A DNA stretch of 64,000 nt from a virus (Duplodnaviria; Caudoviricetes): the IMG/VR virus record IMGVR_UViG_3300024259_000011; one strand, 5' to 3'. The position numbers and the translations under genes are program-made. How positions within the stretch are numbered: the stretch's first letter is position 1; each line of letters opens with the position of its first letter. Under the pieces are notes generated by a model. The model was not told the DNA's origin and ran no database searches. It saw only the letters and a program-made list of their open reading frames with translations. Of the stretch, positions 3,391 through 43,875 are shown one piece after another.

Positions 3391-4275
3391 TCATCCAAGG
3401 TTAATGTTTCCAATCATCAGAATCTCTCTCGCTTTCTTTGCGGTGAAGGTTCCATCGTCATGCTTCTTTCTGCGTCCTGCCGTATAGGTCACGTCAAAAT
3501 ACACTATCTTGTTGTCGCCTGTCCGGTCCTCAAAGAACCCATCGCCCACATCACGGTTAGACATGATGGCGTATGCACCCAACTCCTTAGAATCATTGAG
3601 GAATCCAATCACTCGCTGTTGCATGCTGTCATCAAAGTTCACACCATACTGAGTGAATGAGCCGCGATAGGGAGGGTCGAGAAACACAAAGGCATTTTGA
3701 TGGGTCAGTTCATGGCGCGTCTTTGCCAACACACGCCCAAAGTCACCGGACAGCAGCGTGCATCGTTGCAGTGCATGGTGCCACTCCATCACATTATCAC
3801 GGTCATAAACCTTGTCTTTCTGGTTCAACAGCCCGCTCGGAGTACCAAACCGACCATTCGTATTCTGGTTGATCTGCCAGATACCATTGAATCCTGTTTT
3901 CATCAGAAAGTATAATGTTGCAGCCTCGTCAGTCTCCGTCCACTTCTCATAATCGTAGGCATGTTCGTGTCGTAAAGCATAATAAAGCTCTTTGCGCTCG
4001 GGTTTGTCCAATGGCAGATAGCGATCCGAAAGATGGTCTAGCCTGTCGATGAACAACTCAACATCATGCTTGACAGCAGTATAAATCTGCATGATTGACT
4101 CATTGTAATCATTCAGTACAAACTTAGCCTTTGGGTTCTTCTGGTATGCCCACACAAACATAGCGCCTGCACCGACGAACGGTTCAACATACAGGTCAAA
4201 CGTATCTGGTAGATGTTCGGTATACTTTTTAATCATGCGAGTCTTACCACCCGCCCACATAAACAATGGCTTCAT
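3391..4275 (-). CDS. dam: DNA adenine methyltransferase, Dam/D12 class
   Basis: N-terminal WAGGK, EPFVGAGA (motif I), DPPY (motif IV). Confidence 0.9.
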   Translation of the reverse strand: MKPLFMWAGGKTRMIKKYTEHLPDTFDLYVEPFVGAGAMFVWAYQKNPKAKFVLNDYNESIMQIYTAVKHDVELFIDRLDHLSDRYLPLDKPERKELYYALRHEHAYDYEKWTETDEAATLYFLMKTGFNGIWQINQNTNGRFGTPSGLLNQKDKVYDRDNVMEWHHALQRCTLLSGDFGRVLAKTRHELTHQNAFVFLDPPYRGSFTQYGVNFDDSMQQRVIGFLNDSKELGAYAIMSNRDVGDGFFEDRTGDNKIVYFDVTYTAGRRKKHDDGTFTAKKAREILMIGNINLG

Positions 4276-4769
4276 ACAATCTCCATGATTCTTGCAGCGA
4301 CCTCACTAATGTTCGCATGCTTAGGTTCCATTATAGCATAGTTTGACTCACAAAGCAATAGGTTGATCTCATCTTGATACTTCTGACCTTGGAACGTTTT
4401 ACCTGAAAACACTAGAAAGAAAGGGCTGTCCACTGTGTTGTGTTCTTCTCTCACCTTGCGTTGCAGTGGCTCAGACAAGAATTTATACACACGCTCATGG
4501 GCGTTGCCTCCATTGTTCCCTGCTTTGTTCTCAATGAAAAGGCACTTGCCTGTCTTTGTATTGGTGACCTTGGAATCCAGCTTGATCCCCCTGCCCTCGG
4601 TATAGATCACCAGCTTTGGCGGCTGGTGGTGGACCGTGTAATGACTTGGCAAATGCTTTGCCAACGCAAATGCGAAAGTTTCTTCGCCAGCGGTGCCAAC
4701 TTGATTAGCTTCAAGCTGCCAGTTTTCCCTGCTAGACAAATAATGCGGCGGCTGATCATGGTAGCTCAC
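4272..4769 (-). CDS. PD-(D/E)xK nuclease, MunI-like type II restriction endonuclease candidate
   Basis: GEETF...LD...FIENK...GNAHER; the GNAHER stretch recalls the MunI family; coupled (ATGA overlap) to the methylase. Confidence 0.55.
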   Translation of the reverse strand: MSYHDQPPHYLSSRENWQLEANQVGTAGEETFAFALAKHLPSHYTVHHQPPKLVIYTEGRGIKLDSKVTNTKTGKCLFIENKAGNNGGNAHERVYKFLSEPLQRKVREEHNTVDSPFFLVFSGKTFQGQKYQDEINLLLCESNYAIMEPKHANISEVAARIMEIV

Positions 4770-10689: not shown

Positions 10690-13600
10690 TTACTCCGTTT
10701 CTCTTAGTACCTTTCTTATATTAGCACGGATTTTAGCTTCTGTCAAGGCTTTCTTTAAGTATGCTACTCGCTCGTCCACCGCCGAAGCGCGCTCGGCGCG
10801 CCTTCGCAGCAAATCCTCAATCTCTTCTTCGGTAGGTGCGCGTCCATTAAATGCTGCCGTCAATTCTTCGATAGCCTTTTCGCGCTCGGTCATGCGGGGG
10901 GCTCCCGCTTCTCGGGGCTCTCCAAGTGTGCCTCTCAGTGTGCCCGCGGGCTCCTTGTAGGTGTCTCTGATCGCCTCGATCTCTTCTGGGGTCATGCGGC
11001 GCCCCATCGACTGCTCTTGTCGCTTGACATACATTTCTATGTCCTCTTCTTTGCGCTTAGCCTCTCTCTCGTCTTCTGTTCCAAAAAACTTCTTTGTGAT
11101 CTCTGGGCTTTTTAGGTGCTCGCCGTTTGCTCCTCTTCTCAAGCTGTGTGGGATGTTGGCGTCAGCCATCCATGCGTCAACATTTCGCCCCCAGCCATTA
11201 GGAAGATGGGCGCCTACCTCCCACCGCGATGCGCCCATCCCCTGACTCATTGGCTTTAAGTACTTCTCGATCAAAACCTCTTTCTCGAATTCATTCATCT
11301 TTGAGTACACATCGCCATTAGACCACCACTCTACGATAGCACGGTGGTGGCTCTGCTGAATACCCATGGCGTCATAAGCATAGTCTTTCATGATCATTTT
11401 ACTCAACTCCATCGCATAGTCGGCGCCGAGGTATTCCCTTTTTAACTCCTGTGCGATCTCAAGGTTGGGTGTGAGGGCGAACTCTTGTGTCACTTCCTTG
11501 GCTGCTTGCATCACCATGTCAACATGTTTGTCTACAAACTCAACGAAGTGAAACGCGCCTTCTAGCTCCTCTTTGGAGTCTTTGCTCATAGCCACAATCT
11601 TGAGCCTGAAAAAGATGGGTTGATTTGCGGATTGTTTAGCCACACTCTCAGCAGTTCCAAATCTTAAGGCGATCTGTACGTCCTTGGCAAAACTAATGCC
11701 TTCATATTTGGGCGATGCGTATTTGTCTCCGAAAGGGAGGTCGATCTGTGTCTTTGCATAGCCGTTCGCTGCAGCTTCTAGTTTCTTCAGCCTCTCGGCA
11801 AAGAACTTAGCGTAGGATGAGTTGGTGTCAGAACCAACCCACACCCAACTGCCGGACTCTCGCCTACCCGAAAGAGCTTTCGCCATCAAGCCTGCCGGCT
11901 CAATATGCCGGGGATTTCTAGCGCCTCCAAATATGTTTGGGTGCTTCGCTAGCCAATACATCTCGCTAGCAGGATACGTCAGATTCAAAGGCATCTCGTA
12001 GTCTGAGTTGTGGGCGCCATGACCTAGGTTAAACCAGATCTCTCCTGTCGGATCGTCGTCATCGTCACCGATAATATTAAAGTTCTTGAGCCTGTCTTCA
12101 AAGTCTTCGATCTCGTTCTGTGTGTCGTCCCATGCGCTAGGTTTCGCGAAGCCTTCCTCAACCAATTTCCTTCTGACCTTCTCGTAAAACTGATCATACT
12201 TGCCGTCGAGATCTCGCATGTGATCCAAGAAGTAGTCGGCATCGTCTGGAGTGGTGCAGTCCTCGCAGTTGAACCGGTAATTGATCTCAAGACCATCCTC
12301 CGTATGATTCCAGTCTGTTTCCTCGGGGTATTCGCCAAAGTCCAAGAGGTTTTCAAAGTCCCGGTAGCCCTCATCGTTGTATGATTGGGGAATATCGTAT
12401 GTCGGGTGAACGTCGTTGCCTTCGCCATCATCACCCCAGCCCAGCGGGATTGTTAGAGTGAGGTCGCCGCTAGCTTGGACCTGCGGTGGGTACTCGGCTT
12501 CTTCCCAGTAAACGTCCGCGTAGAAGGACGCATGCTCTAAGTCGTTGGCTGCTTCATTGAGATCTTCTGCTGCGGATTCGTACTCATCGTTCATTTGTTC
12601 ATTTTCGCTTTCTTCCTCGTCGTCGGCGTCATGATGAACGTCCATCCCATCGTTGTAGGGATCGGGGAGGTCGCCTCCGCGAGCCTCAATCCCGAAAAAC
12701 ATATTGAGGATTTCCCCATCGCGAGTGTCGCCGTAGCTGCCGCCGTGTCGCGTAAGGTAGCTTTTCTCTGGGATGAAATACGTGGTTGCCTCGCCCTTAC
12801 CAGACTCGGGATCAACGTCACCCAACTCTTGAGCAAACATCTCTTTCTGTTTCTCCCACACATATTCTCTAACCGCACCGACAAAGCCGGGAACGGCGGT
12901 GCCGTATGTCCTGCTCTCGGGCGCAGCGAAGGTTAGGCTGTTCGGGTCATCGACATACTTCCTGAGTCTGACGCGAGCCTTTACGCCGATGCCGGGTACA
13001 TCGCGGTCGTGATCTCTGAAGATTTCTTCGTCGTCGAGGTCGCCAATATCTCTCGGGTCTGGCGCTCGGGTGGCTTCTTTGCTGTGCTTCTCAAGTGCAG
13101 CTTTATATTCTTCTTCAGATGTGATTCCTTCCCACGGCTTGAATAAGTCTGGGTGGCTACCGGGACCACGGGCTTCATACTTCTCGTAGTTTTTAACGTA
13201 CTGCTTGAACAACAATGGGCTGATGTTGAGAGCCTTGGCTTGAGCGAGCAGCATAACTTCTTTAAACTTCTCAGGCTTCGATGCCATCTCAACCTTCTTC
13301 TCCATTCCGTTCCACCACTTTGTGCCGGTGTTGGTCCTAGCCCACACCCACAACAACATCAACGCACCCTCGGGTGTCTCGGTGTCGTAGTCCTGACGGA
13401 TAGCTGTGATTCTCTCAGCTTGTCCTAGCTCCTGATACATCCTGTCGAGTTTCGCAATCGGTCGTTCTCTTTCCTCAGAGGGTTTCAGAAGTTTATTAAG
13501 TTCTGCCTCTGTGACTGCGTATGCGATAGGACCGTGACCCTTTGCTTCCGCAACAGCACACTTGAAGTAGTCGCTGCCCTCGCTGTGGCATGAGTGAATG

Positions 13601-25476: not shown

Positions 25477-25792
25477 TGTGCTCCTCTTCGATCATGTCGA
25501 ATATGTTTTCTATCTCATTTGAGTCGAGAGCGAAATGCTCTGTAAGTTTCTTGCCTTGAGCGCTCAGCTTCTTAGACTTTGCATTCTTCAGCTTGCTGTG
25601 CTTGCTCTTCTCAGACTTTAATGTTCCCAAAAACTGCATAAATTCTGGCGACTGGTTTACATAAGCATCAATACAGCCACGAAAGAAATCTGACTGACTG
25701 ATTCCATCATAGTGTAGTCGGATGCGCAAATCAGCATGAACCTTGTCGTTCTCTCTGAAAACCACTCGCTTGTTATAAAATTCATCTGACAT
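25466..25792 (-). CDS. Hypothetical protein (possible RHH-like DNA binder)
   Basis: 108 aa; VVFR..D..HADL..RL...SQSDF. Confidence 0.6.
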   Translation of the reverse strand: MSDEFYNKRVVFRENDKVHADLRIRLHYDGISQSDFFRGCIDAYVNQSPEFMQFLGTLKSEKSKHSKLKNAKSKKLSAQGKKLTEHFALDSNEIENIFDMIEEEHNEL

Positions 25793-26803
25793 TGCTTAGC
25801 CCTAGGATATGAGTGCCCGACTCAGATATACCAGCAGCCGTTTGTCGTGTGAACTTAGCCCGTGCCTGAAGTTCCGCAAGGGTGCGGGCGCCTGAATAAG
25901 AAAGCCCGCTTCTGATTCCGTTGTCTAGTTCGCCAAGCACGTCGTCCACTGAGCCTTTCATCGGAATGGTAGCTGACACGCCCTCCAGTGACGATGCGCT
26001 GCCGCGCCAATCCTGCTGTGCTTCTTCCGATGCCATGCCTCGATAAGTCTTGTGTGCTACGCCATCGATGTGTACGACCTCGGTGCCACATGATTCTCGG
26101 GTGCCGGCTAGCATAGAGCCCAACATCACAGCATCGGCGCCTGCAGCCAGTGCCTTAACAGCGTCACCACTGTTACGAATTCCTCCGTCAGCAATGATCG
26201 CGGCGTCCATGCCAGTCTTAGCGCAGTCCATGATGGTCTGCAGCCCGGGCACACCATGACCAGTTTGAATTCTGTAGAACAAATCGAGCCACCACCAATG
26301 TTGCATCTGATGGAGTTTGCACCCCACTCGGCTAGCGCGTTAAAGCCCTCAAGTGTAGCCACGTTACCCGCCATAATATGTACAGTATCACCAAACGTAT
26401 CTTTTAGCTGCTTTATAGCTGCCTCCATCAAGGAGTGGTGACCGTGAGCAACATCAATACATAAGATTTCTGCGCCCATGGCTACCACTGACCTTGCTCT
26501 GTCGTGGAAATCGCCGGTGACGCCGATGGCTGCTGCTTTAGTTCCATGCTTCTGCTGCCTGATAAGCTTGGCTTGTTTGTCAATCGAACAATAGCGGTGG
26601 ATAACTCCCAAGCCGCCGGCTAAGCCCATGCGGGAAGCCATCAATGCTTCAGTAACCGTATCCATGGGAGACGAAATGACTGGTAAATCCAGTCTAAAAG
26701 AACCCAGCATGGTGCCGATGTCAATCTCTTTCCTGCTACGGATATCAGAGTACTGAGGTACCAGCAAAACATCATCGTAGCTGAGGCTTACCATGGTTTT
26801 CAT
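25782..26803 (-). pseudogene. guaB: IMP dehydrogenase/GMP reductase (CBS-less), split by a one-base frameshift near 26272
   Basis: 5' ORF: SYDDVLLVP, SSPMDTV, GLGVIHR, IDVAHGH, AGNVAT, GGGSICST. 3' ORF continues RIQTGHGVP, IIADGGI, KALAAGAD.VMLGS..AG, YRGMAS. Confidence 0.85.
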
Positions 26804-27102
26804 TATAGTTCTCCCTTTTCATACTTCTCAACCAGTCGTTGTGCTGCCGACCAACAGTCAGGACAATACAGGCGAATGATCTTCTTCTGCTCCCTGACTA
26901 CTATGTTCCACGATGCCAGCATCTCGCGATTCTGCTTGTCGAACTCGGCTTCGCACATTAGGCATGCCTCTGGGAGTTTAGTATAAAACTCCATCTTTTC
27001 TGCGAGATCGGGGCTACCACCCTTGCGCTCTGCTGCAGCCATGCCTCGTCGCTGCTTACGGTTCACGCCTTCTCCATGGTAAAGGCGCTTGGGTTGCCCC
27101 AA
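26803..27102 (-). CDS. Hypothetical CxxC...CxxC zinc-binding protein
   Basis: CLMC and CPDC. Confidence 0.65.
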   Translation of the reverse strand: MGQPKRLYHGEGVNRKQRRGMAAAERKGGSPDLAEKMEFYTKLPEACLMCEAEFDKQNREMLASWNIVVREQKKIIRLYCPDCWSAAQRLVEKYEKGEL

Positions 27103-27551
27103 GCATCGCGATTTGTATTCTCAAACACCACGACTGCCGAAGGGAAAGGGGCGGCGTTGGTGGCGTCACCAAACTTGAGCCTGCCCTTCACAAAATGAAT
27201 CTCTTTCGCCTTCATCACATAGTCGTGCCAATACCGTGTATCAGTACGAGCCGGAATCAGCATGACAACACGGGTGTGCTGCTTCTGGGATTCAGCATAT
27301 GCCTTAGCGATCCACTGGTCGATCCCTCGACCATATGGAGGATTGATAAAAACAATGTGCCCTCCCCAATCCTTGACAAGTCCATTCTCTGCTTCTGTGT
27401 AGAAGTTGGCGCACTTAGTATTGTGGATTGTCGCGCATGGGTCGAGATCGAACGGACCAAAGCGCCAGTTCAGCTTATCAAAGAAGTCCTGTGGGGTTGC
27501 CCACTCGCCTGTCTTGGATGAAAATAATGTTTGTTGTGTTGCTGTGTTCAC
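27063..27551 (-). CDS. Phage-type DNA N6-adenine methyltransferase
   Basis: WATPQDFF, FDLDPCA, FINPPYG, LIPARTDT; likely GTG start 27551 with AAAGGA RBS. Confidence 0.9.
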   Translation of the reverse strand: MNTATQQTLFSSKTGEWATPQDFFDKLNWRFGPFDLDPCATIHNTKCANFYTEAENGLVKDWGGHIVFINPPYGRGIDQWIAKAYAESQKQHTRVVMLIPARTDTRYWHDYVMKAKEIHFVKGRLKFGDATNAAPFPSAVVVFENTNRDAWGNPSAFTMEKA

Positions 27552-27552
27552 T

Positions 27553-28155
27553 TCATGTCCTTTCGTGCTTTGCCCACTTTGAAACAAATTCTTCAAAGCT
27601 TGAGTAAGCACAATAATAGTTTTTATCTGAGTTAAAAACGATACAACACACGTTGTTGTAGAGTTTCAGATCTTTTTCAAGGTATTCGCAAAATTTGGAA
27701 ATCTTGGTTAGCTTCTTTTCCCGAGCAACGTCGGTGCCGTCGAAGTCATCCTCTACTACAAGGAGATAGCCGAGGTTAATGTCCTTGTTAACGTGGCGAA
27801 GATCCGTAGCAACTCCGATGGCTTCTTCAACGCGGTTAGAAAAGCATTTGCCCATCTTTGACATGACAATACTCTTGAGTTCTATCGCATTGCTAAAAGT
27901 GGCGCCCGTGCCGTATGCTAGATCCCAACGCTTGTTCAAAAATGCGCCGCGAATTGTGGCGCGATGCTTTTGTTCAACAACGAAGGGCGAAGGAACCGCA
28001 CGAATCAACGCATCGGTGAAGCCATCCATGTGCCTGTCTGCTTTCTTGACATCGCGCTGGTTGCCCTCATATGAGTAAATAGTGTGATAATAGTGCTCAA
28101 TGGCTTCATATAACTCACTCATCGTAGCCATTTGGCGCCTTTGCTTCCTATTCAC
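27553..28155 (-). CDS. XhoI/PaeR7I-family restriction endonuclease-like protein
   Basis: K.WD....AIELKS....GKCFSNRVEEAIGVATD....LGYLLVVED matches the XhoI/PaeR7I core as I recall it. Confidence 0.7.
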   Translation of the reverse strand: MNRKQRRQMATMSELYEAIEHYYHTIYSYEGNQRDVKKADRHMDGFTDALIRAVPSPFVVEQKHRATIRGAFLNKRWDLAYGTGATFSNAIELKSIVMSKMGKCFSNRVEEAIGVATDLRHVNKDINLGYLLVVEDDFDGTDVAREKKLTKISKFCEYLEKDLKLYNNVCCIVFNSDKNYYCAYSSFEEFVSKWAKHERT

Positions 28156-28609
28156 CGGTACTTCCTAGTGCGCCGTCACCACGGTCGCTAATTGTTATTG
28201 GATACCAACCATATAAATCATTGTCACCTTGCCTCTCCATGGCGCGGAAGTGTACAACCGGCGTCATAACAACTTGAGCAATCTTTGCATGTGCATCAAT
28301 AACTTGTGTTTTAGTTCCAACGTTATGAAGGTTAATAAATACCTCTCCGTCATAACCCGAATCAATGACACACGCTCCCACGATAAGACTGCGCTTTGCA
28401 GCCATGCCAGAGCGGTTCTTCACTTCCAGCATATAGCCGTGTGGGATTCCAAACCTGATCCCTGTGGGCAGGACGGCGCTAGTACCCGGGGCAATAGTGA
28501 TAGCCGTGTTGTCAGCAGGACTGAAATGAACATCCAGTCCCGCATCGCTTGGGTTTGCCCGAGAAGGCGGGTGTACGTTAAAGTGTGTACGGCACCATTC
28601 GATCATCAT
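28148..28609 (-). CDS. dut: Trimeric dUTPase
   Basis: SDAGLD, NRSGMA, VIDSGYDGEV, KIAQ, RGDGALGSTG. Confidence 0.95.
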   Translation of the reverse strand: MMIEWCRTHFNVHPPSRANPSDAGLDVHFSPADNTAITIAPGTSAVLPTGIRFGIPHGYMLEVKNRSGMAAKRSLIVGACVIDSGYDGEVFINLHNVGTKTQVIDAHAKIAQVVMTPVVHFRAMERQGDNDLYGWYPITISDRGDGALGSTGE

Positions 28610-41968: not shown

Positions 41969-43030
41969 TTATCTAACTGCAAAGACAGTCCAAGAAACTC
42001 CCAGACTTGGATCATCATACATTCTTTCGCCGACTTTATAATGGGTCCGATTTGAATTTGAATATGTCGTACGCACTTTAGTAATTGGGCGAAGGCGGAA
42101 CTTGATATTGACATTAGGATCAGTGATATAATATTCTACGACTTCATCAATCGACTGAGTTTTCGCTAGAATATTTTGAAGGTCTGCAGGGTCGGTGATG
42201 CCGGGAGGTACATCAGCTATCAACACGGCATCTGCTCTCGCTGGATTCGTTTCCGCGCCGGCACACACAAGCGTTAAAAAGCTGCGGTAAGACTCACCCA
42301 ACACATCAGACAAATGAAGGTAAATGTTTTTTATTTTAAAAGAATTTTTCAGTAGCCCGTTCTTCCCAAAGGCTTCTGACACCGCCAAAGCTTGATGTGC
42401 TGCTCCATCTTTAGCCAGTGGGGAGGGGAAAGAGTACGAAGGGTCTGCTGCAGTCACAATCGAAAGGAATTGGTCCTTCTCTTCTTGGATCACAGATGCT
42501 TGTTCCGCTGTGATCTTTGCCAACTGCTCCTTCATGTCGTTTACAAGAATGTTACGAGCATCTTCCTCCAAGCCGACCTCGACAAGTTTTGCACGAAATT
42601 TAGCTTCATCCATCCGATTTTCTAAAAATCCAAAGTTTTCTTTCTTCATGCTTAGACCGATAGCGCCGCCGTCAGCTAGCACAAGGTTAATGTCTGCCTT
42701 TGGCTCTGGCTTGCCGCCGCCCATTTGTTTAGCGCCCACAACCATTTGCTCGCCCAAACTGCCAATGGTCATCGGAACAGGTTGACCACCGTTCGCGTTC
42801 ACAACGCTATTAACAGCAGCAACTAAGTTTCTCTCGCTATCCTGCCCAGACATTTGCTCTTGAAGTGACTCGGCTTCTGGAGCCAGAGAGCCAAAATCAT
42901 CGCAACCAATGGCAGAATCACAGATAGCAACTTCATCGTCTGCACCTGTTCCCAAATCTAACATTTCACCAGCCTCTTGCTCTTCTGTTAAGAATCTGCG
43001 CCAGCCTTCCATAATAGGTTTCATTGTCAT
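41969..43030 (-). CDS. PD-(D/E)xK nuclease-like late protein
   Basis: GGKPEPKADI...IGLSMKK; start at ATG 43030 or 43024; ACTAATTA upstream. Confidence 0.6.
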   Translation of the reverse strand: MTMKPIMEGWRRFLTEEQEAGEMLDLGTGADDEVAICDSAIGCDDFGSLAPEAESLQEQMSGQDSERNLVAAVNSVVNANGGQPVPMTIGSLGEQMVVGAKQMGGGKPEPKADINLVLADGGAIGLSMKKENFGFLENRMDEAKFRAKLVEVGLEEDARNILVNDMKEQLAKITAEQASVIQEEKDQFLSIVTAADPSYSFPSPLAKDGAAHQALAVSEAFGKNGLLKNSFKIKNIYLHLSDVLGESYRSFLTLVCAGAETNPARADAVLIADVPPGITDPADLQNILAKTQSIDEVVEYYITDPNVNIKFRLRPITKVRTTYSNSNRTHYKVGERMYDDPSLGVSWTVFAVR

Positions 43031-43875
43031 TACCCTATAATTAGTAGTTCGGATGAGGAACCCATTGTTTTTTTGCCAACACATTTGCCATCGACCCACT
43101 CGACGTTCTTCATGCCGTATGCCCACTCAGCAGTGACAAACTTGCGGTTAGAGTATAGATCACGGACCTCTGGACAATCATTGTATGACATTACCCAATC
43201 GGATCGGTCGGAAAGCAAGTTATAAAGCGCCATATGGTCAAATCCCGCGTGAAGCCCCCCTGCTTGCCCGTAGAGCATCGCAGCGTCTTCTGGCAGCATG
43301 TAGGGTGGGTCAAGGTACAGGAAGGCTCTAGGATGCCATGGGAGGCTTGTTTGAAAGTCTGCGTAGTCTACCCTGAAGTTCTCGGCGTTAAACCTGCGTA
43401 ATCGGTCGATAGACGACTGAGTGAAGCGAGCGTATGATGCTCTCTTAGACCAGCCACCAGAAAAGGTAGCGCCTGAGAAGCTAGAGCGATTGATCGCGTA
43501 GAACTTTGCCGCCTTCTCGTATGAAAACTTGAATGATGGATCTCGCAGTTCTTCACGAAGTTTAATAAAATCGTCTTTGGAACATCCTTCTACAAGTTTA
43601 GTAATGTCCTTCTCTTCAATCTCGTACTCCGTGCGTAGGGCGGTGACCTCATCAGCCAGCCTTTCGTTATCCGCACACAGCGCTTGCCAAAACCAAACAA
43701 GAGGCACCAGCTTGTCATAGCCGATAACCTCTGTACCTCTCGACGCTACCGCCAACTCAACCGAACCGCCGCCAAAGAATGGCGAACACAGACGCGAAAC
43801 GTCTTCGGGAATGTACGGCAAGATGTGCTTCACTGCACGCGATTTGCCGCCGGGATAACGAAGAGGCGTTTTCAT
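43030..43875 (-). CDS. dam: DNA adenine methyltransferase, Dam/D12 class
   Basis: LRYPGGKS, SPFFGGGS, INRSSFSG, YLDPPY. Confidence 0.92.
   Translation of the reverse strand: MKTPLRYPGGKSRAVKHILPYIPEDVSRLCSPFFGGGSVELAVASRGTEVIGYDKLVPLVWFWQALCADNERLADEVTALRTEYEIEEKDITKLVEGCSKDDFIKLREELRDPSFKFSYEKAAKFYAINRSSFSGATFSGGWSKRASYARFTQSSIDRLRRFNAENFRVDYADFQTSLPWHPRAFLYLDPPYMLPEDAAMLYGQAGGLHAGFDHMALYNLLSDRSDWVMSYNDCPEVRDLYSNRKFVTAEWAYGMKNVEWVDGKCVGKKTMGSSSELLIIG

What the first reader, a model, noticed from the sequence alone, without database searches (positions are those of the whole stretch)
27063..28155. XhoI/PaeR7I-like endonuclease in a genome segment apparently purged of CTCGAG
Seen (manual scan, may miss sites): roughly 50 occurrences of CTCGA followed by A, C or T and none followed by G. 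Established: XhoI/PaeR7I cut CTCGAG; the neighbouring methylase belongs to the phage Dam-like family rather than the methylase type usual for that system. Inference: the nuclease may be an unprotected weapon against host or competitor DNA, with self-immunity by site avoidance. Caveat: GTCGAC also seemed absent, so avoidance could reflect host R-M or general palindrome depletion.
Basis: partly seen in the sequence, partly recalled or inferred. Interest (0 to 1): 0.7.

Follow-up and report, generated by a model that had tools for sequence, protein, structure and literature searches.

The report
Mobile XhoI-like nuclease cassette in phage
An uncultured ocean phage carries a lone restriction-enzyme-like nuclease gene that behaves as a mobile cassette, while the missing CTCGAG sites are an older trait shared by many aquatic phages that lack the gene.

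Summary
Observation confirmed. The 64-kb window has no CTCGAG (7-17 expected) and 56 CTCGA followed only by A, C or T.

The refuting condition is also met. Fifteen of 64 palindromic hexamers are absent, and GGCC, CCWGG and CACGAG are nearly absent.

CTCGAG is equally missing from relatives without the nuclease: three complete 185-201 kb genomes and about 1.8 Mb of loci from three phage lineages. It is also missing from cultured aquatic T4-like phages (P-SSM2, S-PM2, HTVC008M, KVP40, Aeh1). T4 itself, which has modified DNA, has 19 sites. The purge is inherited restriction-site avoidance and was not caused by this gene.

The span holds two genes:
- an XhoI-family (PF04555) nuclease, 27553-28131(-), 192 aa;
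- a Dam-like methylase, 27063-27551(-).

They are not a restriction-modification pair. The nuclease is an exact 593-bp cassette between the dUTPase and methylase genes. Relatives have that site empty, or filled by PvuII-like or MvaI/BcnI-like nucleases or a cytochrome c.

In two other lineages the same nuclease clade occupies slots that are empty or hold HNH/EndoVII homing-endonuclease genes in sister phages. It keeps its catalytic D..ExK, is under purifying selection and models as a homodimer.

Best reading: a solitary, mobile, homing-type nuclease, tolerated because its carriers already lack the site. New variant of a known kind.

The parts
27553..28131 (-). XhoI-family (PF04555) PD-(D/E)XK nuclease, 192 aa (= P0001). 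ATG at 28131, TGA stop at 27555-27553. The longer GTG-started reading to 28155 overlaps the dUTPase stop and is probably not used.
   Evidence: Pfam PF04555, E 2.8e-11, 44.1 bits against a cut-off of 25. Public gene calls give 192 aa. D70, E84 and K86 are invariant in the clade alignment A1. AlphaFold2 model pLDDT 92.8. Nearest solved folds are type II restriction enzymes: PspGI Z 10.2, BbvCI 10.0, NgoMIV 9.8, BstEII 9.3. Homodimer model score 0.63 against best control 0.00.
27554..28146 (-). Cassette-specific DNA (593 bp): short leader with a ribosome-binding-like AAAGG, plus the nuclease ORF. It is absent from relatives.
   Evidence: BLASTN of the window against L260, L261 and L264. Flanks align up to 28147-28150 and from 27550-27553. 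In L264 the two flanks abut at position 10978, an empty site. In L260 and L261 an unrelated stretch of about 318 bp fills the slot; in L260 it reads as a 110-aa cytochrome c ORF.
27063..27551 (-). Dam-like N6-adenine DNA methylase (PF05869), 162 aa, GTG start two bases after the nuclease stop. It is a lineage-conserved gene and not the nuclease's partner.
   Evidence: Pfam PF05869, E 4.5e-34; PHROG 111. It is present next to dUTPase in many relatives that have no XhoI-like gene. Relatives with little or no GATC (L283, L292) lack it, and in L337 the slot is not covered; relatives with it mostly keep normal GATC counts.
28148..28609 (-). dUTPase, the conserved upstream flank of the slot. In empty-site relatives its stop overlaps the methylase start (ATGA).
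   Evidence: Pfam PF00692, E 7.2e-18. Junction sequences read.

Best explanation
The ORF at 27553-28131(-) encodes an intact, selectively maintained XhoI-family PD-(D/E)XK nuclease. It most likely works as a symmetric homodimer on a short palindromic site.

It is a solitary single-gene cassette of 593 bp, dropped exactly between the phage's dUTPase gene and a lineage-conserved Dam-like methylase gene. It is not half of a restriction-modification system.

The same nuclease clade is scattered among unrelated marine phage lineages. It always sits in intergenic slots between conserved replication or nucleotide-metabolism genes. In sister phages those slots are empty or hold HNH/EndoVII homing-endonuclease genes or other restriction-enzyme folds.

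The most likely mode of action is therefore that of a free-standing, homing-type endonuclease. During infection it would cut DNA that carries its site, whether co-infecting phages or the host chromosome. Its own genome would be spared because it has no such site.

Shown here: family membership, catalytic motif, fold, cassette boundaries, empty sites, sporadic distribution, absence of a cognate methylase, purifying selection, and independence of CTCGAG avoidance from the gene.

Inferred: nuclease activity, the homing or exclusion role, and CTCGAG as the target (my estimate about 35%).

The absence of CTCGAG is a pre-existing, community-wide restriction-site avoidance. It makes such a gene harmless to its carrier and is not a consequence of the gene.
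For: Family and fold:
- PF04555 above threshold.
- D70/E84/K86 invariant across 20 clade members.
- Model pLDDT 92.8, with type II restriction enzymes as top structural neighbours: Z 10.2-9.3 over about 155 of 192 residues.
- Homodimer model 0.63 against best control 0.00. The three runs agree in at least 96% of contacts and partner pLDDT is at least 85. That mark was reached by 20 of 30 proteins solved as pairs and 1 of 23 solved as single chains.

Cassette in the window lineage:
- Exact 593-bp insert with an empty site in L264.
- None of 80 IMG/VR relatives has it, including L260 (97% protein identity over the DNA-polymerase segment queried).
- That slot holds MvaI/BcnI-family (PF15515, 3e-34), PvuII-like (PF09225; PvuII fold, Foldseek E 8.5e-7), an N4/N6 methylase, a cytochrome c or a GHKL ATPase in relatives.

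Other lineages:
- PolA|ThyX slot: mostly empty, XhoI-like in L113/L013, EndoVII-type in L118/L162.
- DnaQ|DnaE-C slot: mostly empty, XhoI-like in L034/L037/L039, HNH_3 or EndoVII in others.
- Further contexts without a methylase next to it.

Maintenance: dN/dS 0.125 for L113 against L013. The carrier genotype is near-identical in 19 marine runs from at least 14 studies, 2012-2020.

Published parallel: free-standing homing endonucleases of T4 sit in intergenic regions between conserved genes, and different ones can replace each other (PMC2988022). EndoVII-motif homing endonucleases exist in cyanophage (PMC6083498).

Avoidance is independent of the gene.
Against: - No activity, target site or gene-conversion event has been observed.
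- If the enzyme still cuts CTCGAG, nearly all related phages lack the site, so it would have no homing target among them. A homing role would then need a changed specificity.
- The slot in the window's own lineage also carries non-nuclease cargo (cytochrome c, GHKL ATPase) and one apparently complete PvuII-like nuclease-plus-methylase set. It may be a general accessory hot spot and not a homing site.
- The protein is a compact 192-aa homodimer-type enzyme without the extra DNA-binding domains typical of GIY-YIG/HNH homing enzymes.
- The gene sits among nucleotide-metabolism genes, which also fits a host-DNA salvage role.
Confidence: 0.55

Rival explanations
1. One reading: the phage genome was purged of CTCGAG because it carries an unprotected CTCGAG-cutting weapon, so self-immunity evolved by site loss.
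For: All 25 non-redundant carrier loci and the window have zero CTCGAG. Among all 2080 hexamers only CTCGAG and GAGCTC are absent from every carrier. No cognate methylase is present.
Against: Non-carriers are just as free of the site:
- PolA lineage: 0 against 52-84 expected in 480 kb.
- Split-DnaE lineage: 0 against 31-84 in 689 kb.
- Three complete relatives of 185-201 kb without the gene have 0 sites (positive controls).
- Cultured P-SSM2, S-PM2, HTVC008M, KVP40 and Aeh1 have 0 and Syn9 has 1. No cultured phage record matches the nuclease.

The closest relative, L260, has the site-free genome but a cytochrome c gene in the slot. Fourteen other palindromes are equally absent from the window.
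Confidence: 0.05
2. The nuclease and the adjacent Dam-like methylase form a working phage restriction-modification pair: the methylase protects phage DNA at the nuclease's site and the nuclease destroys unmethylated host or competitor DNA.
For: The two genes are separated by one base and are co-oriented. N6-adenine methylation of DNA blocks XhoI in a published protection assay (PMC3299994, table read).
Against: - The methylase is conserved next to dUTPase in many relatives with no nuclease.
- The nuclease clade occurs in at least four other contexts with no methylase beside it.
- The genome has no CTCGAG left to protect.
- GATC is plentiful in methylase carriers and nearly absent only in some relatives that lack the methylase, which fits a GATC (Dam-type) specificity.
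Confidence: 0.06
3. The nuclease is an adaptive host-takeover enzyme. It fragments the host chromosome to feed the neighbouring nucleotide-salvage genes, and the phage is spared because it lacks the site.
For: The gene sits in an operon with dUTPase, GMP reductase, ribonucleotide reductase and the DNA polymerase. In other phages it lies next to ThyX, PolA or DnaE. It is under purifying selection and widespread in the ocean.
Against: - The distribution is sporadic even among near-identical relatives. That is unusual for a core takeover function.
- The slots are shared with classic selfish homing-endonuclease genes.
- If site avoidance reflects host enzymes of the same specificity, host DNA would be methylated and resistant.
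Confidence: 0.2
4. The protein is a repair or recombination nuclease, structure-specific or non-specific, that only shares the restriction-enzyme fold.
For: The PD-(D/E)XK fold is shared with resolvases and NucC-type nucleases (NucC Z 9.1 and 8.4). The Pfam score is modest (44 bits) and the protein is about 50 aa shorter than bacterial members.
Against: - The top structural neighbours are orthodox sequence-specific type II enzymes.
- It passes the curated PF04555 threshold.
- A core repair enzyme would not be present or absent among close relatives, nor swap places with HNH genes.
Confidence: 0.08

Closest known systems
XhoI / PaeR7I type IIP restriction-modification systems (Pfam PF04555 nuclease with a gamma-class N6-adenine methylase)
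   Same: Same sequence family above the curated threshold, same D..ExK catalytic motif, a type II restriction-enzyme fold, and a predicted symmetric homodimer.
   Different: - 192 aa against 238-248 aa, and 44 bits against 123-305 bits for bacterial members.
- No Eco57I/N6_Mtase/TaqI_C methylase upstream, whereas all five bacterial loci tested have one.
- Phage-borne, solitary and mobile.
- Best identity to bacterial genome hits is 26-46% over short partial segments, so CTCGAG specificity cannot be assumed.
Free-standing homing endonuclease genes of T4-like phages (seg/GIY-YIG, mob/HNH; F-CphI of cyanophage S-PM2)
   Same: - Single-gene insert in an intergenic slot between conserved replication or nucleotide-metabolism genes.
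- Empty sites in relatives and a sporadic distribution.
- Different nuclease families replace one another in the same slot (PMC2988022, PMC6083498).
   Different: - The catalytic family is a type IIP restriction-enzyme family and not GIY-YIG or HNH.
- It is compact and dimeric, without an added DNA-binding domain.
- No cleavage site or gene conversion has been shown.
I-Ssp6803I, the PD-(D/E)XK homing endonuclease
   Same: A restriction-enzyme-fold nuclease used as a mobile homing enzyme. PMC6083498 lists PD-(D/E)XK among the six homing-endonuclease families.
   Different: By my recollection it is intron-encoded and recognises a long pseudo-palindromic site. It does not appear among the top 50 structural neighbours of the XhoI-like model; it appears only as a weak hit for the PvuII-like slot protein.
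Solitary restriction endonucleases in prokaryote and phage genomes (Ershova 2012, PMC3488263; Oliveira 2014, PMC4176335)
   Same: A type II nuclease gene with no linked methylase. Oliveira et al. counted 12 solitary nucleases in 831 phage genomes and noted that such genes may be lethal if the site is present in the genome.
   Different: Here the solitary state is shown to be original (cassette insertion, other contexts) and not decay of a complete system. The gene is under purifying selection, and the carrier genome is free of the family's canonical site.
Chlorovirus-encoded restriction-modification systems that degrade host DNA (from my own knowledge)
   Same: A virus-encoded type II-like nuclease that may attack host DNA early in infection.
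   Different: Chloroviruses protect themselves with cognate methylases. Here there is none, and self-protection, if needed, would be by absence of the site.

Membership tests
Pfam PF04555 (XhoI restriction endonuclease family) | Match to the family profile above the curated gathering score | tested here: met
   44.1 bits against a cut-off of 25, E 2.8e-11, profile positions 13-163 of 191. The distant clade member L037 scores 36.6 bits.
Pfam PF04555 (XhoI restriction endonuclease family) | PD-(D/E)XK catalytic residues (D ... E-x-K) intact | tested here: met
   D70, E84 and K86, together with R100, E102 and E103, are invariant in 20 clade sequences.
Pfam PF04555 (XhoI restriction endonuclease family) | Type II restriction-enzyme fold and homodimeric assembly | tested here: met
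   Structural alignment (VIA-align): PspGI Z 10.2 (rmsd 3.1, 156 aligned), BbvCI 10.0, NgoMIV 9.8, BstEII 9.3. Homodimer model 0.63 against best control 0.00. Both are models only.
Pfam PF04555 (XhoI restriction endonuclease family) | Cleavage of CTCGAG | not testable with these tools
   No close characterised relative and no solved structure with DNA. Only indirect: CTCGAG and GAGCTC are the only hexamers absent from all carriers, but they are absent from most non-carriers too.
XhoI/PaeR7I-type restriction-modification system | Adjacent cognate gamma-class N6-adenine methylase (Eco57I / N6_Mtase / TaqI_C domains) | tested here: not met
   The neighbour is PF05869, Dam-like, 162 aa. All five bacterial loci tested have a 549-663 aa Eco57I-type methylase directly upstream. 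No methylase lies next to the gene in the other phage carriers.
XhoI/PaeR7I-type restriction-modification system | Nuclease and methylase inherited together | tested here: not met
   The Dam-like gene is present in many relatives without the nuclease. The nuclease is present in other lineages without the Dam-like gene.
Free-standing homing endonuclease genes of phages | Intergenic insertion between conserved genes, with empty sites in close relatives | tested here: met
   Three slots were examined:
- dUTPase|Dam, empty in L264;
- PolA|ThyX, empty in most of about 40 relatives;
- DnaQ|DnaE-C, empty in most of 80 relatives.
Free-standing homing endonuclease genes of phages | The same slot occupied by other homing-endonuclease families in sister genomes | tested here: met
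   EndoVII-type (PF02945) in L118, L162, L354 and L361. HNH_3 (PF13392) in L347 and L376. A CHNCH-motif ORF in L346, L374 and L381.
Free-standing homing endonuclease genes of phages | Cuts cassette-less genomes near the slot and spreads by gene conversion | not testable with these tools
   No cultured phage or host. Relatives lack CTCGAG, so any homing target would have to be a different sequence.

The most novel reading that the evidence does not exclude
Solitary restriction-enzyme cassettes (XhoI-like, PvuII-like, MvaI/BcnI-like) circulating among co-infecting marine T4-like phages are themselves a major selective force. Sister phages would restrict one another without methylases. The whole phage community would then have been driven to lose the union of the cassettes' sites. 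The window's subclade lacks CTCGAG, CAGCTG and CCWGG, and its members carry one or another of the three nuclease types in the same slot.
Probability: 0.08. Interest if true: 0.8.

Novelty: new variant of a known kind. Interest (0 to 1): 0.5.

Why it matters
The result separates two things that looked linked. The striking loss of CTCGAG, together with some 15 other sites, is classical anti-restriction site avoidance, and it is very widespread in aquatic large phages with presumably unmodified DNA. It is not evidence for a new self-immunity mechanism.

The nuclease itself is a type IIP restriction-enzyme family living as a methylase-free mobile cassette in the same kind of slots as HNH/EndoVII homing endonucleases. 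One slot in an abundant ocean phage lineage cycles through at least three restriction-enzyme folds.

If the enzymes are active, this gives a natural bridge between restriction enzymes and homing endonucleases. It would also be a source of new, small, possibly sequence-specific nucleases, and a handle on how site-free genomes become permissive for 'naked' restriction genes.

Tried and rejected
- No whole genome is held for the window. Relatives and public contigs were used instead.
- Megablast of 8 kb against cultured phages gave no match. tblastn of the nuclease against 50,697 phage records gave no match.
- PHROGs and NCBIfam do not know the nuclease.
- A sequence search of the PDB found nothing real. 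Foldseek against the PDB gave only weak PD-(D/E)XK hits, E at or above 5e-3. The exhaustive structural search was needed.
- Cluster look-up gave no source names for distant homologues.
- Carrier against non-carrier association of CTCGAG absence: carriers lack the site in 26 of 26 cases, but about 90% or more of non-carrier loci do too. There is no significant excess.
- Profile comparison of the XhoI clade with the 190/198-aa slot ORFs of L265/L266 showed no relation. Those ORFs are PvuII-fold instead.
- ORFs with NPPY/DPPY/DPPF motifs next to some carriers looked like methylases. They are DnaE C-terminal halves or, in L023, a VWA protein.
- Expression: the one metatranscriptome run holds a single 237-nt contig over 26925-27155 and nothing over the nuclease. 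This says nothing either way.
- Capsid-targeting leader, a lead from earlier notes: the nuclease begins MATMSELYEAIEHYY. That stretch is part of the conserved domain in all clade members and does not resemble the ...EGWRRFLTEE-type leader quoted for ORF 41969-43126. Rejected by reading only.
- Looking for a shared target-like sequence at empty junctions gave nothing interpretable.
Full report
**1. The observation**

The window (64,000 bp, 48.4% G+C, nearly all genes on the minus strand) contains no CTCGAG. It has 56 CTCGA, followed by A 5, C 23, T 28 and G 0 times, and no GTCGAC. Markov expectations for CTCGAG are 16.5, 9.3 and 7.2 for orders 1, 3 and 4, so the absence is real.

It is far from unique. 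Fifteen of the 64 palindromic hexamers have zero copies, twelve of them with 6-21 expected under the third-order model. GGCC occurs 7 times against about 200 expected, CCWGG 2 against 103, and the non-palindromic CACGAG/CTCGTG 0 against 30.

**2. What lies at the coordinates**

The span 27063-28155 holds two genes.

- The ORF 27553-28131(-) is a PF04555 XhoI-family protein (E 2.8e-11; 44.1 bits against a cut-off of 25).
- The ORF 27063-27551(-) is a PF05869 Dam-like adenine methylase (E 4.5e-34).

The nuclease's ATG is at 28131, 16 bases after the dUTPase stop. Its TGA stop lies at 27555-27553, and the methylase starts with GTG at 27551. Public gene calls agree on 192 and 162 aa.

The surrounding genes show an uncultured T4-like myophage. 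They include dUTPase, ClpP, a DnaE-type polymerase, ribonucleotide reductase, DnaB, GroEL, UvsX and a tail sheath protein. Identical copies of the nuclease lie on contigs of up to 202 kb. The stretch occurs near-identically in 19 marine runs from at least 14 studies, 2012-2020.

**3. The protein**

The clade is small: 41 cluster representatives at E up to 1e-3 among 1.8 billion proteins.

- The close members (35-61% identical, 170-215 aa) come only from marine metagenome contigs with phage genes.
- Bacterial genomes hold only distant relatives. The five tested are 238-248 aa, score 123-305 bits on PF04555, and are each directly preceded by a 549-663 aa Eco57I/N6_Mtase/TaqI_C methylase.

In the phage clade D70, E84 and K86 (the PD-(D/E)XK motif) and R100, E102 and E103 are invariant.

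The AlphaFold2 model is confident (pLDDT 92.8). Foldseek finds no close solved structure. The exhaustive structural search puts orthodox type II enzymes on top: PspGI Z 10.2, BbvCI 10.0, NgoMIV 9.8, BstEII 9.3. Bse634I, PfoI, AgeI, MunI, BsoBI and EcoRI follow.

A two-copy model gives a symmetric interface. The score is 0.63 against a best control of 0.00. The runs agree in at least 96% of contacts and pLDDT is at least 85. That mark was reached by 20 of 30 proteins solved as pairs and by 1 of 23 solved as single chains.

dN/dS between two carriers is 0.125. Other pairs are saturated at silent sites with dN 0.15-0.35.

Together this describes an intact, constrained, dimeric restriction-type nuclease. 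Its specificity cannot be read from sequence.

**4. Not a restriction-modification pair but a cassette**

BLASTN against relatives fetched through the polymerase gene shows that window 27554-28146 (593 bp) is an insert. The flanks align up to the dUTPase stop and from the methylase start.

- In L264 the two genes abut with an ATGA overlap, an empty site.
- In L260, the closest relative (97% protein identity over the polymerase segment queried, 87-89% nucleotide identity in the flanks), the slot holds a 110-aa cytochrome c ORF.

None of 80 relatives has the XhoI-like gene, while many have the Dam-like methylase. The methylase is therefore an older lineage gene.

Relatives with little or no GATC (L283, L292) lack the methylase, and in L337 the slot is not covered. 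Relatives with the methylase mostly have normal GATC counts. This fits an ordinary GATC specificity.

**5. The slot and the clade's other homes**

The dUTPase|Dam slot is hypervariable. In relatives it carries the following:

- an MvaI/BcnI-family nuclease in L268/L269 (PF15515, E 3e-34);
- PvuII-like nucleases in L265/L266, whose model matches PvuII structures (E 8.5e-7, target TM 0.64) and whose profile's best PDB hit is PvuII;
- in L275, a PF09225 ORF (E 2.5e-5) with a 381-aa ORF and a PF01555 methylase;
- a GHKL ATPase in L294;
- unknown ORFs.

The XhoI-like clade itself sits in several other places, none next to a methylase:

- between PolA and ThyX (L007/L113, L013);
- after ClpP (L340);
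- in an rIIB-region string of small ORFs (L344);
- between DnaQ and the C-terminal half of a split DnaE (L034, L037, L039, L342).

In the PolA lineage the PolA|ThyX junction is empty in most relatives and holds EndoVII-type ORFs in L118 and L162. In the split-DnaE lineage the DnaQ|DnaE-C junction is empty in most of 80 relatives. Elsewhere it holds HNH_3, EndoVII-type or CHNCH-motif ORFs.

This is the pattern described for free-standing homing endonuclease genes of T4-type phages. Those genes sit in intergenic regions between conserved genes, have a sporadic distribution, and include different endonucleases that replace each other (PMC2988022). EndoVII-motif homing enzymes are known from cyanophage S-PM2 (PMC6083498).

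**6. Is the avoidance tied to the gene?**

At first sight it is. Across 25 non-redundant carrier loci (213 kb, window phage excluded), only two of 2080 hexamers are completely absent: CTCGAG (0 against 19-30) and GAGCTC (0 against 26-40). The controls remove the link.

| Set without the nuclease gene | Size | CTCGAG observed | CTCGAG expected |
|---|---|---|---|
| PolA lineage | 31 loci, 480 kb | 0 | 52-84 |
| Window lineage (via UvsX) | 51 loci, 612 kb | 15, in 6 loci | 85-108 |
| Split-DnaE lineage | 45 loci, 689 kb | 0 | 31-84 |

In the first two sets GAGCTC is also 0, against 99-131 and 95-131 expected.

Whole records give the same answer:

- Three complete relatives (185-201 kb) have no PF04555-like gene and no CTCGAG or GAGCTC. 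The search's positive controls hit at about 1e-70.
- Three other non-carrier relatives have 43, 19 and 27 CTCGAG.

Cultured phages have no homologue of the nuclease. Their counts are as follows:

| Phage | CTCGAG count |
|---|---|
| P-SSM2 | 0 |
| S-PM2 | 0 |
| Syn9 | 1 |
| HTVC008M | 0 |
| KVP40 | 0 |
| Aeh1 | 0 |
| T4 | 19 |

By base composition alone I estimate about 12-26 sites expected in each of the first four; I made no such estimate for KVP40 or Aeh1. T4 DNA is hydroxymethylated and glucosylated (PMC2988022).

CTCGAG loss is therefore an old and widespread restriction-site avoidance of aquatic large phages. The cassette entered genomes that were already site-free. All carriers lack the site, which is compatible with 'no site, no self-harm'. 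Given a background of about 90% or more site-free relatives, it is not significant evidence for that idea.

**7. Mechanism and odds**

Best reading (about 0.55): a solitary, mobile, homing-type nuclease cassette. It would act on DNA that carries its site and be harmless to its carrier.

- If the specificity is still CTCGAG (my estimate about 35%), its targets would be the host or unrelated phages, not close relatives, because they lack the site.
- If it homes among relatives, its specificity must have shifted.

Rivals are a host-DNA salvage nuclease (0.2), a repair-type nuclease (0.08), a true pair with the Dam-like methylase (0.06), and a purge caused by the gene (0.05).

The most novel reading not excluded is that phage-borne restriction cassettes themselves drive community-wide site loss (0.08). 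The window's subclade lacks CTCGAG, CAGCTG and CCWGG while its members carry XhoI-, PvuII- or MvaI-like genes in one slot. However, cultured phages without such genes avoid CTCGAG too.

**8. Comparison and novelty**

- The nuclease is a member of the PF04555 sequence family.
- It fails the defining features of an XhoI/PaeR7I restriction-modification system: no cognate methylase and no co-inheritance.
- It meets the genomic, but not the untestable biochemical, criteria of a free-standing homing endonuclease gene.

Solitary nucleases in phages have been counted before: 12 in 831 genomes (PMC4176335). They have not, to my knowledge, been shown as type IIP-family cassettes alternating with HNH/EndoVII genes, or as several restriction folds cycling through one slot. 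I rate this a new variant of a known kind.

Noticed in passing
window 25782-26803 (-), break between 26273 and 26274: The GMP reductase/IMPDH-family gene is split into two overlapping ORFs by a single missing base relative to otherwise 99.98% identical public contigs (L001, L002). Those contigs encode an intact 340-aa protein. This is either an assembly error or a fresh pseudogene.
   Followed up: partly
window, whole 64 kb: Very broad restriction-site avoidance. GGCC occurs 7 times against about 200 expected, CCWGG 2 against 103, CACGAG/CTCGTG 0 against 30, CAGCTC/GAGCTG 3 against 42, AATT 100 against 212-338, and 15 palindromic hexamers are absent. GATC (314) is not avoided.
   Followed up: partly
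window 3391-4769 (-) and 41969-43875 (-): There are two more adenine methylases of the D12 class (PF02086): 3391-4275 and 43030-43875. Each is coupled to a possible nuclease. The first partner is a 165-aa ORF with a sub-threshold MunI match (23.4 bits against 25). The second is a 385-aa ORF with no family. The window thus encodes three methylases and up to three nuclease candidates.
   Followed up: partly
L265:8697-9269, L266:3706-4302, L268:6223-6981, L275:3446-6042, L294:7099-8622, L260:13246-13578: In relatives the dUTPase|Dam slot cycles through several cargoes: PvuII-fold nucleases, an MvaI/BcnI-family nuclease, a PvuII-like ORF with an N4/N6 methylase, a GHKL ATPase and a cytochrome c. 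It is a restriction-enzyme cassette hot spot. L268 and L269, which carry the MvaI-like gene, have 0 CCWGG against 23 and 18 expected.
   Followed up: partly
cultured phage records AY939844, AJ630128, DQ149023, KC465899, AY283928, AY266303 against AF158101: CTCGAG is absent or nearly absent from P-SSM2, S-PM2, Syn9, HTVC008M, KVP40 and Aeh1, all 147-252 kb. T4 has 19. GAGCTC is also 0-1 in HTVC008M and KVP40. I do not know whether this general CTCGAG avoidance in aquatic T4-like phages has been described.
   Followed up: partly
L180-L259 and L260-L339 (window lineage); records G001-G004 and G007-G009: GAGCTC is missing from almost the whole lineage: 0 against 95-131 expected in 612 kb. This includes relatives that keep 19-43 CTCGAG sites. 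Only a few loci (L299, L309, L310) have any GAGCTC. The cause is unknown.
   Followed up: no
L037:4414-8845 and about 80 relatives (L346-L425): A large marine phage lineage has its DnaE polymerase in two pieces, with a DnaQ-like exonuclease gene between them. The N piece has the PHP and NTPase domains. The C piece starts inside the finger domain. The DnaQ|DnaE-C junction is a homing-endonuclease hot spot.
   Followed up: partly
L283, L292, L337 against other L260-L339 loci: Relatives with little or no GATC (0 of 46, 0 of 97, 3 of 46 expected) show no Dam-like methylase; L337 does not cover the slot. Most relatives with the methylase have normal GATC counts. This suggests that the methylase protects GATC.
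   Followed up: partly
L013:10040-10140, L113:11690-11770 against L116:11070-11145: In the PolA lineage the XhoI-like ORF ends with ...FWK-stop. This copies the PolA C-terminus and ThyX-start overlap seen at empty sites, so the insert recreates the native junction on its downstream side.
   Followed up: no
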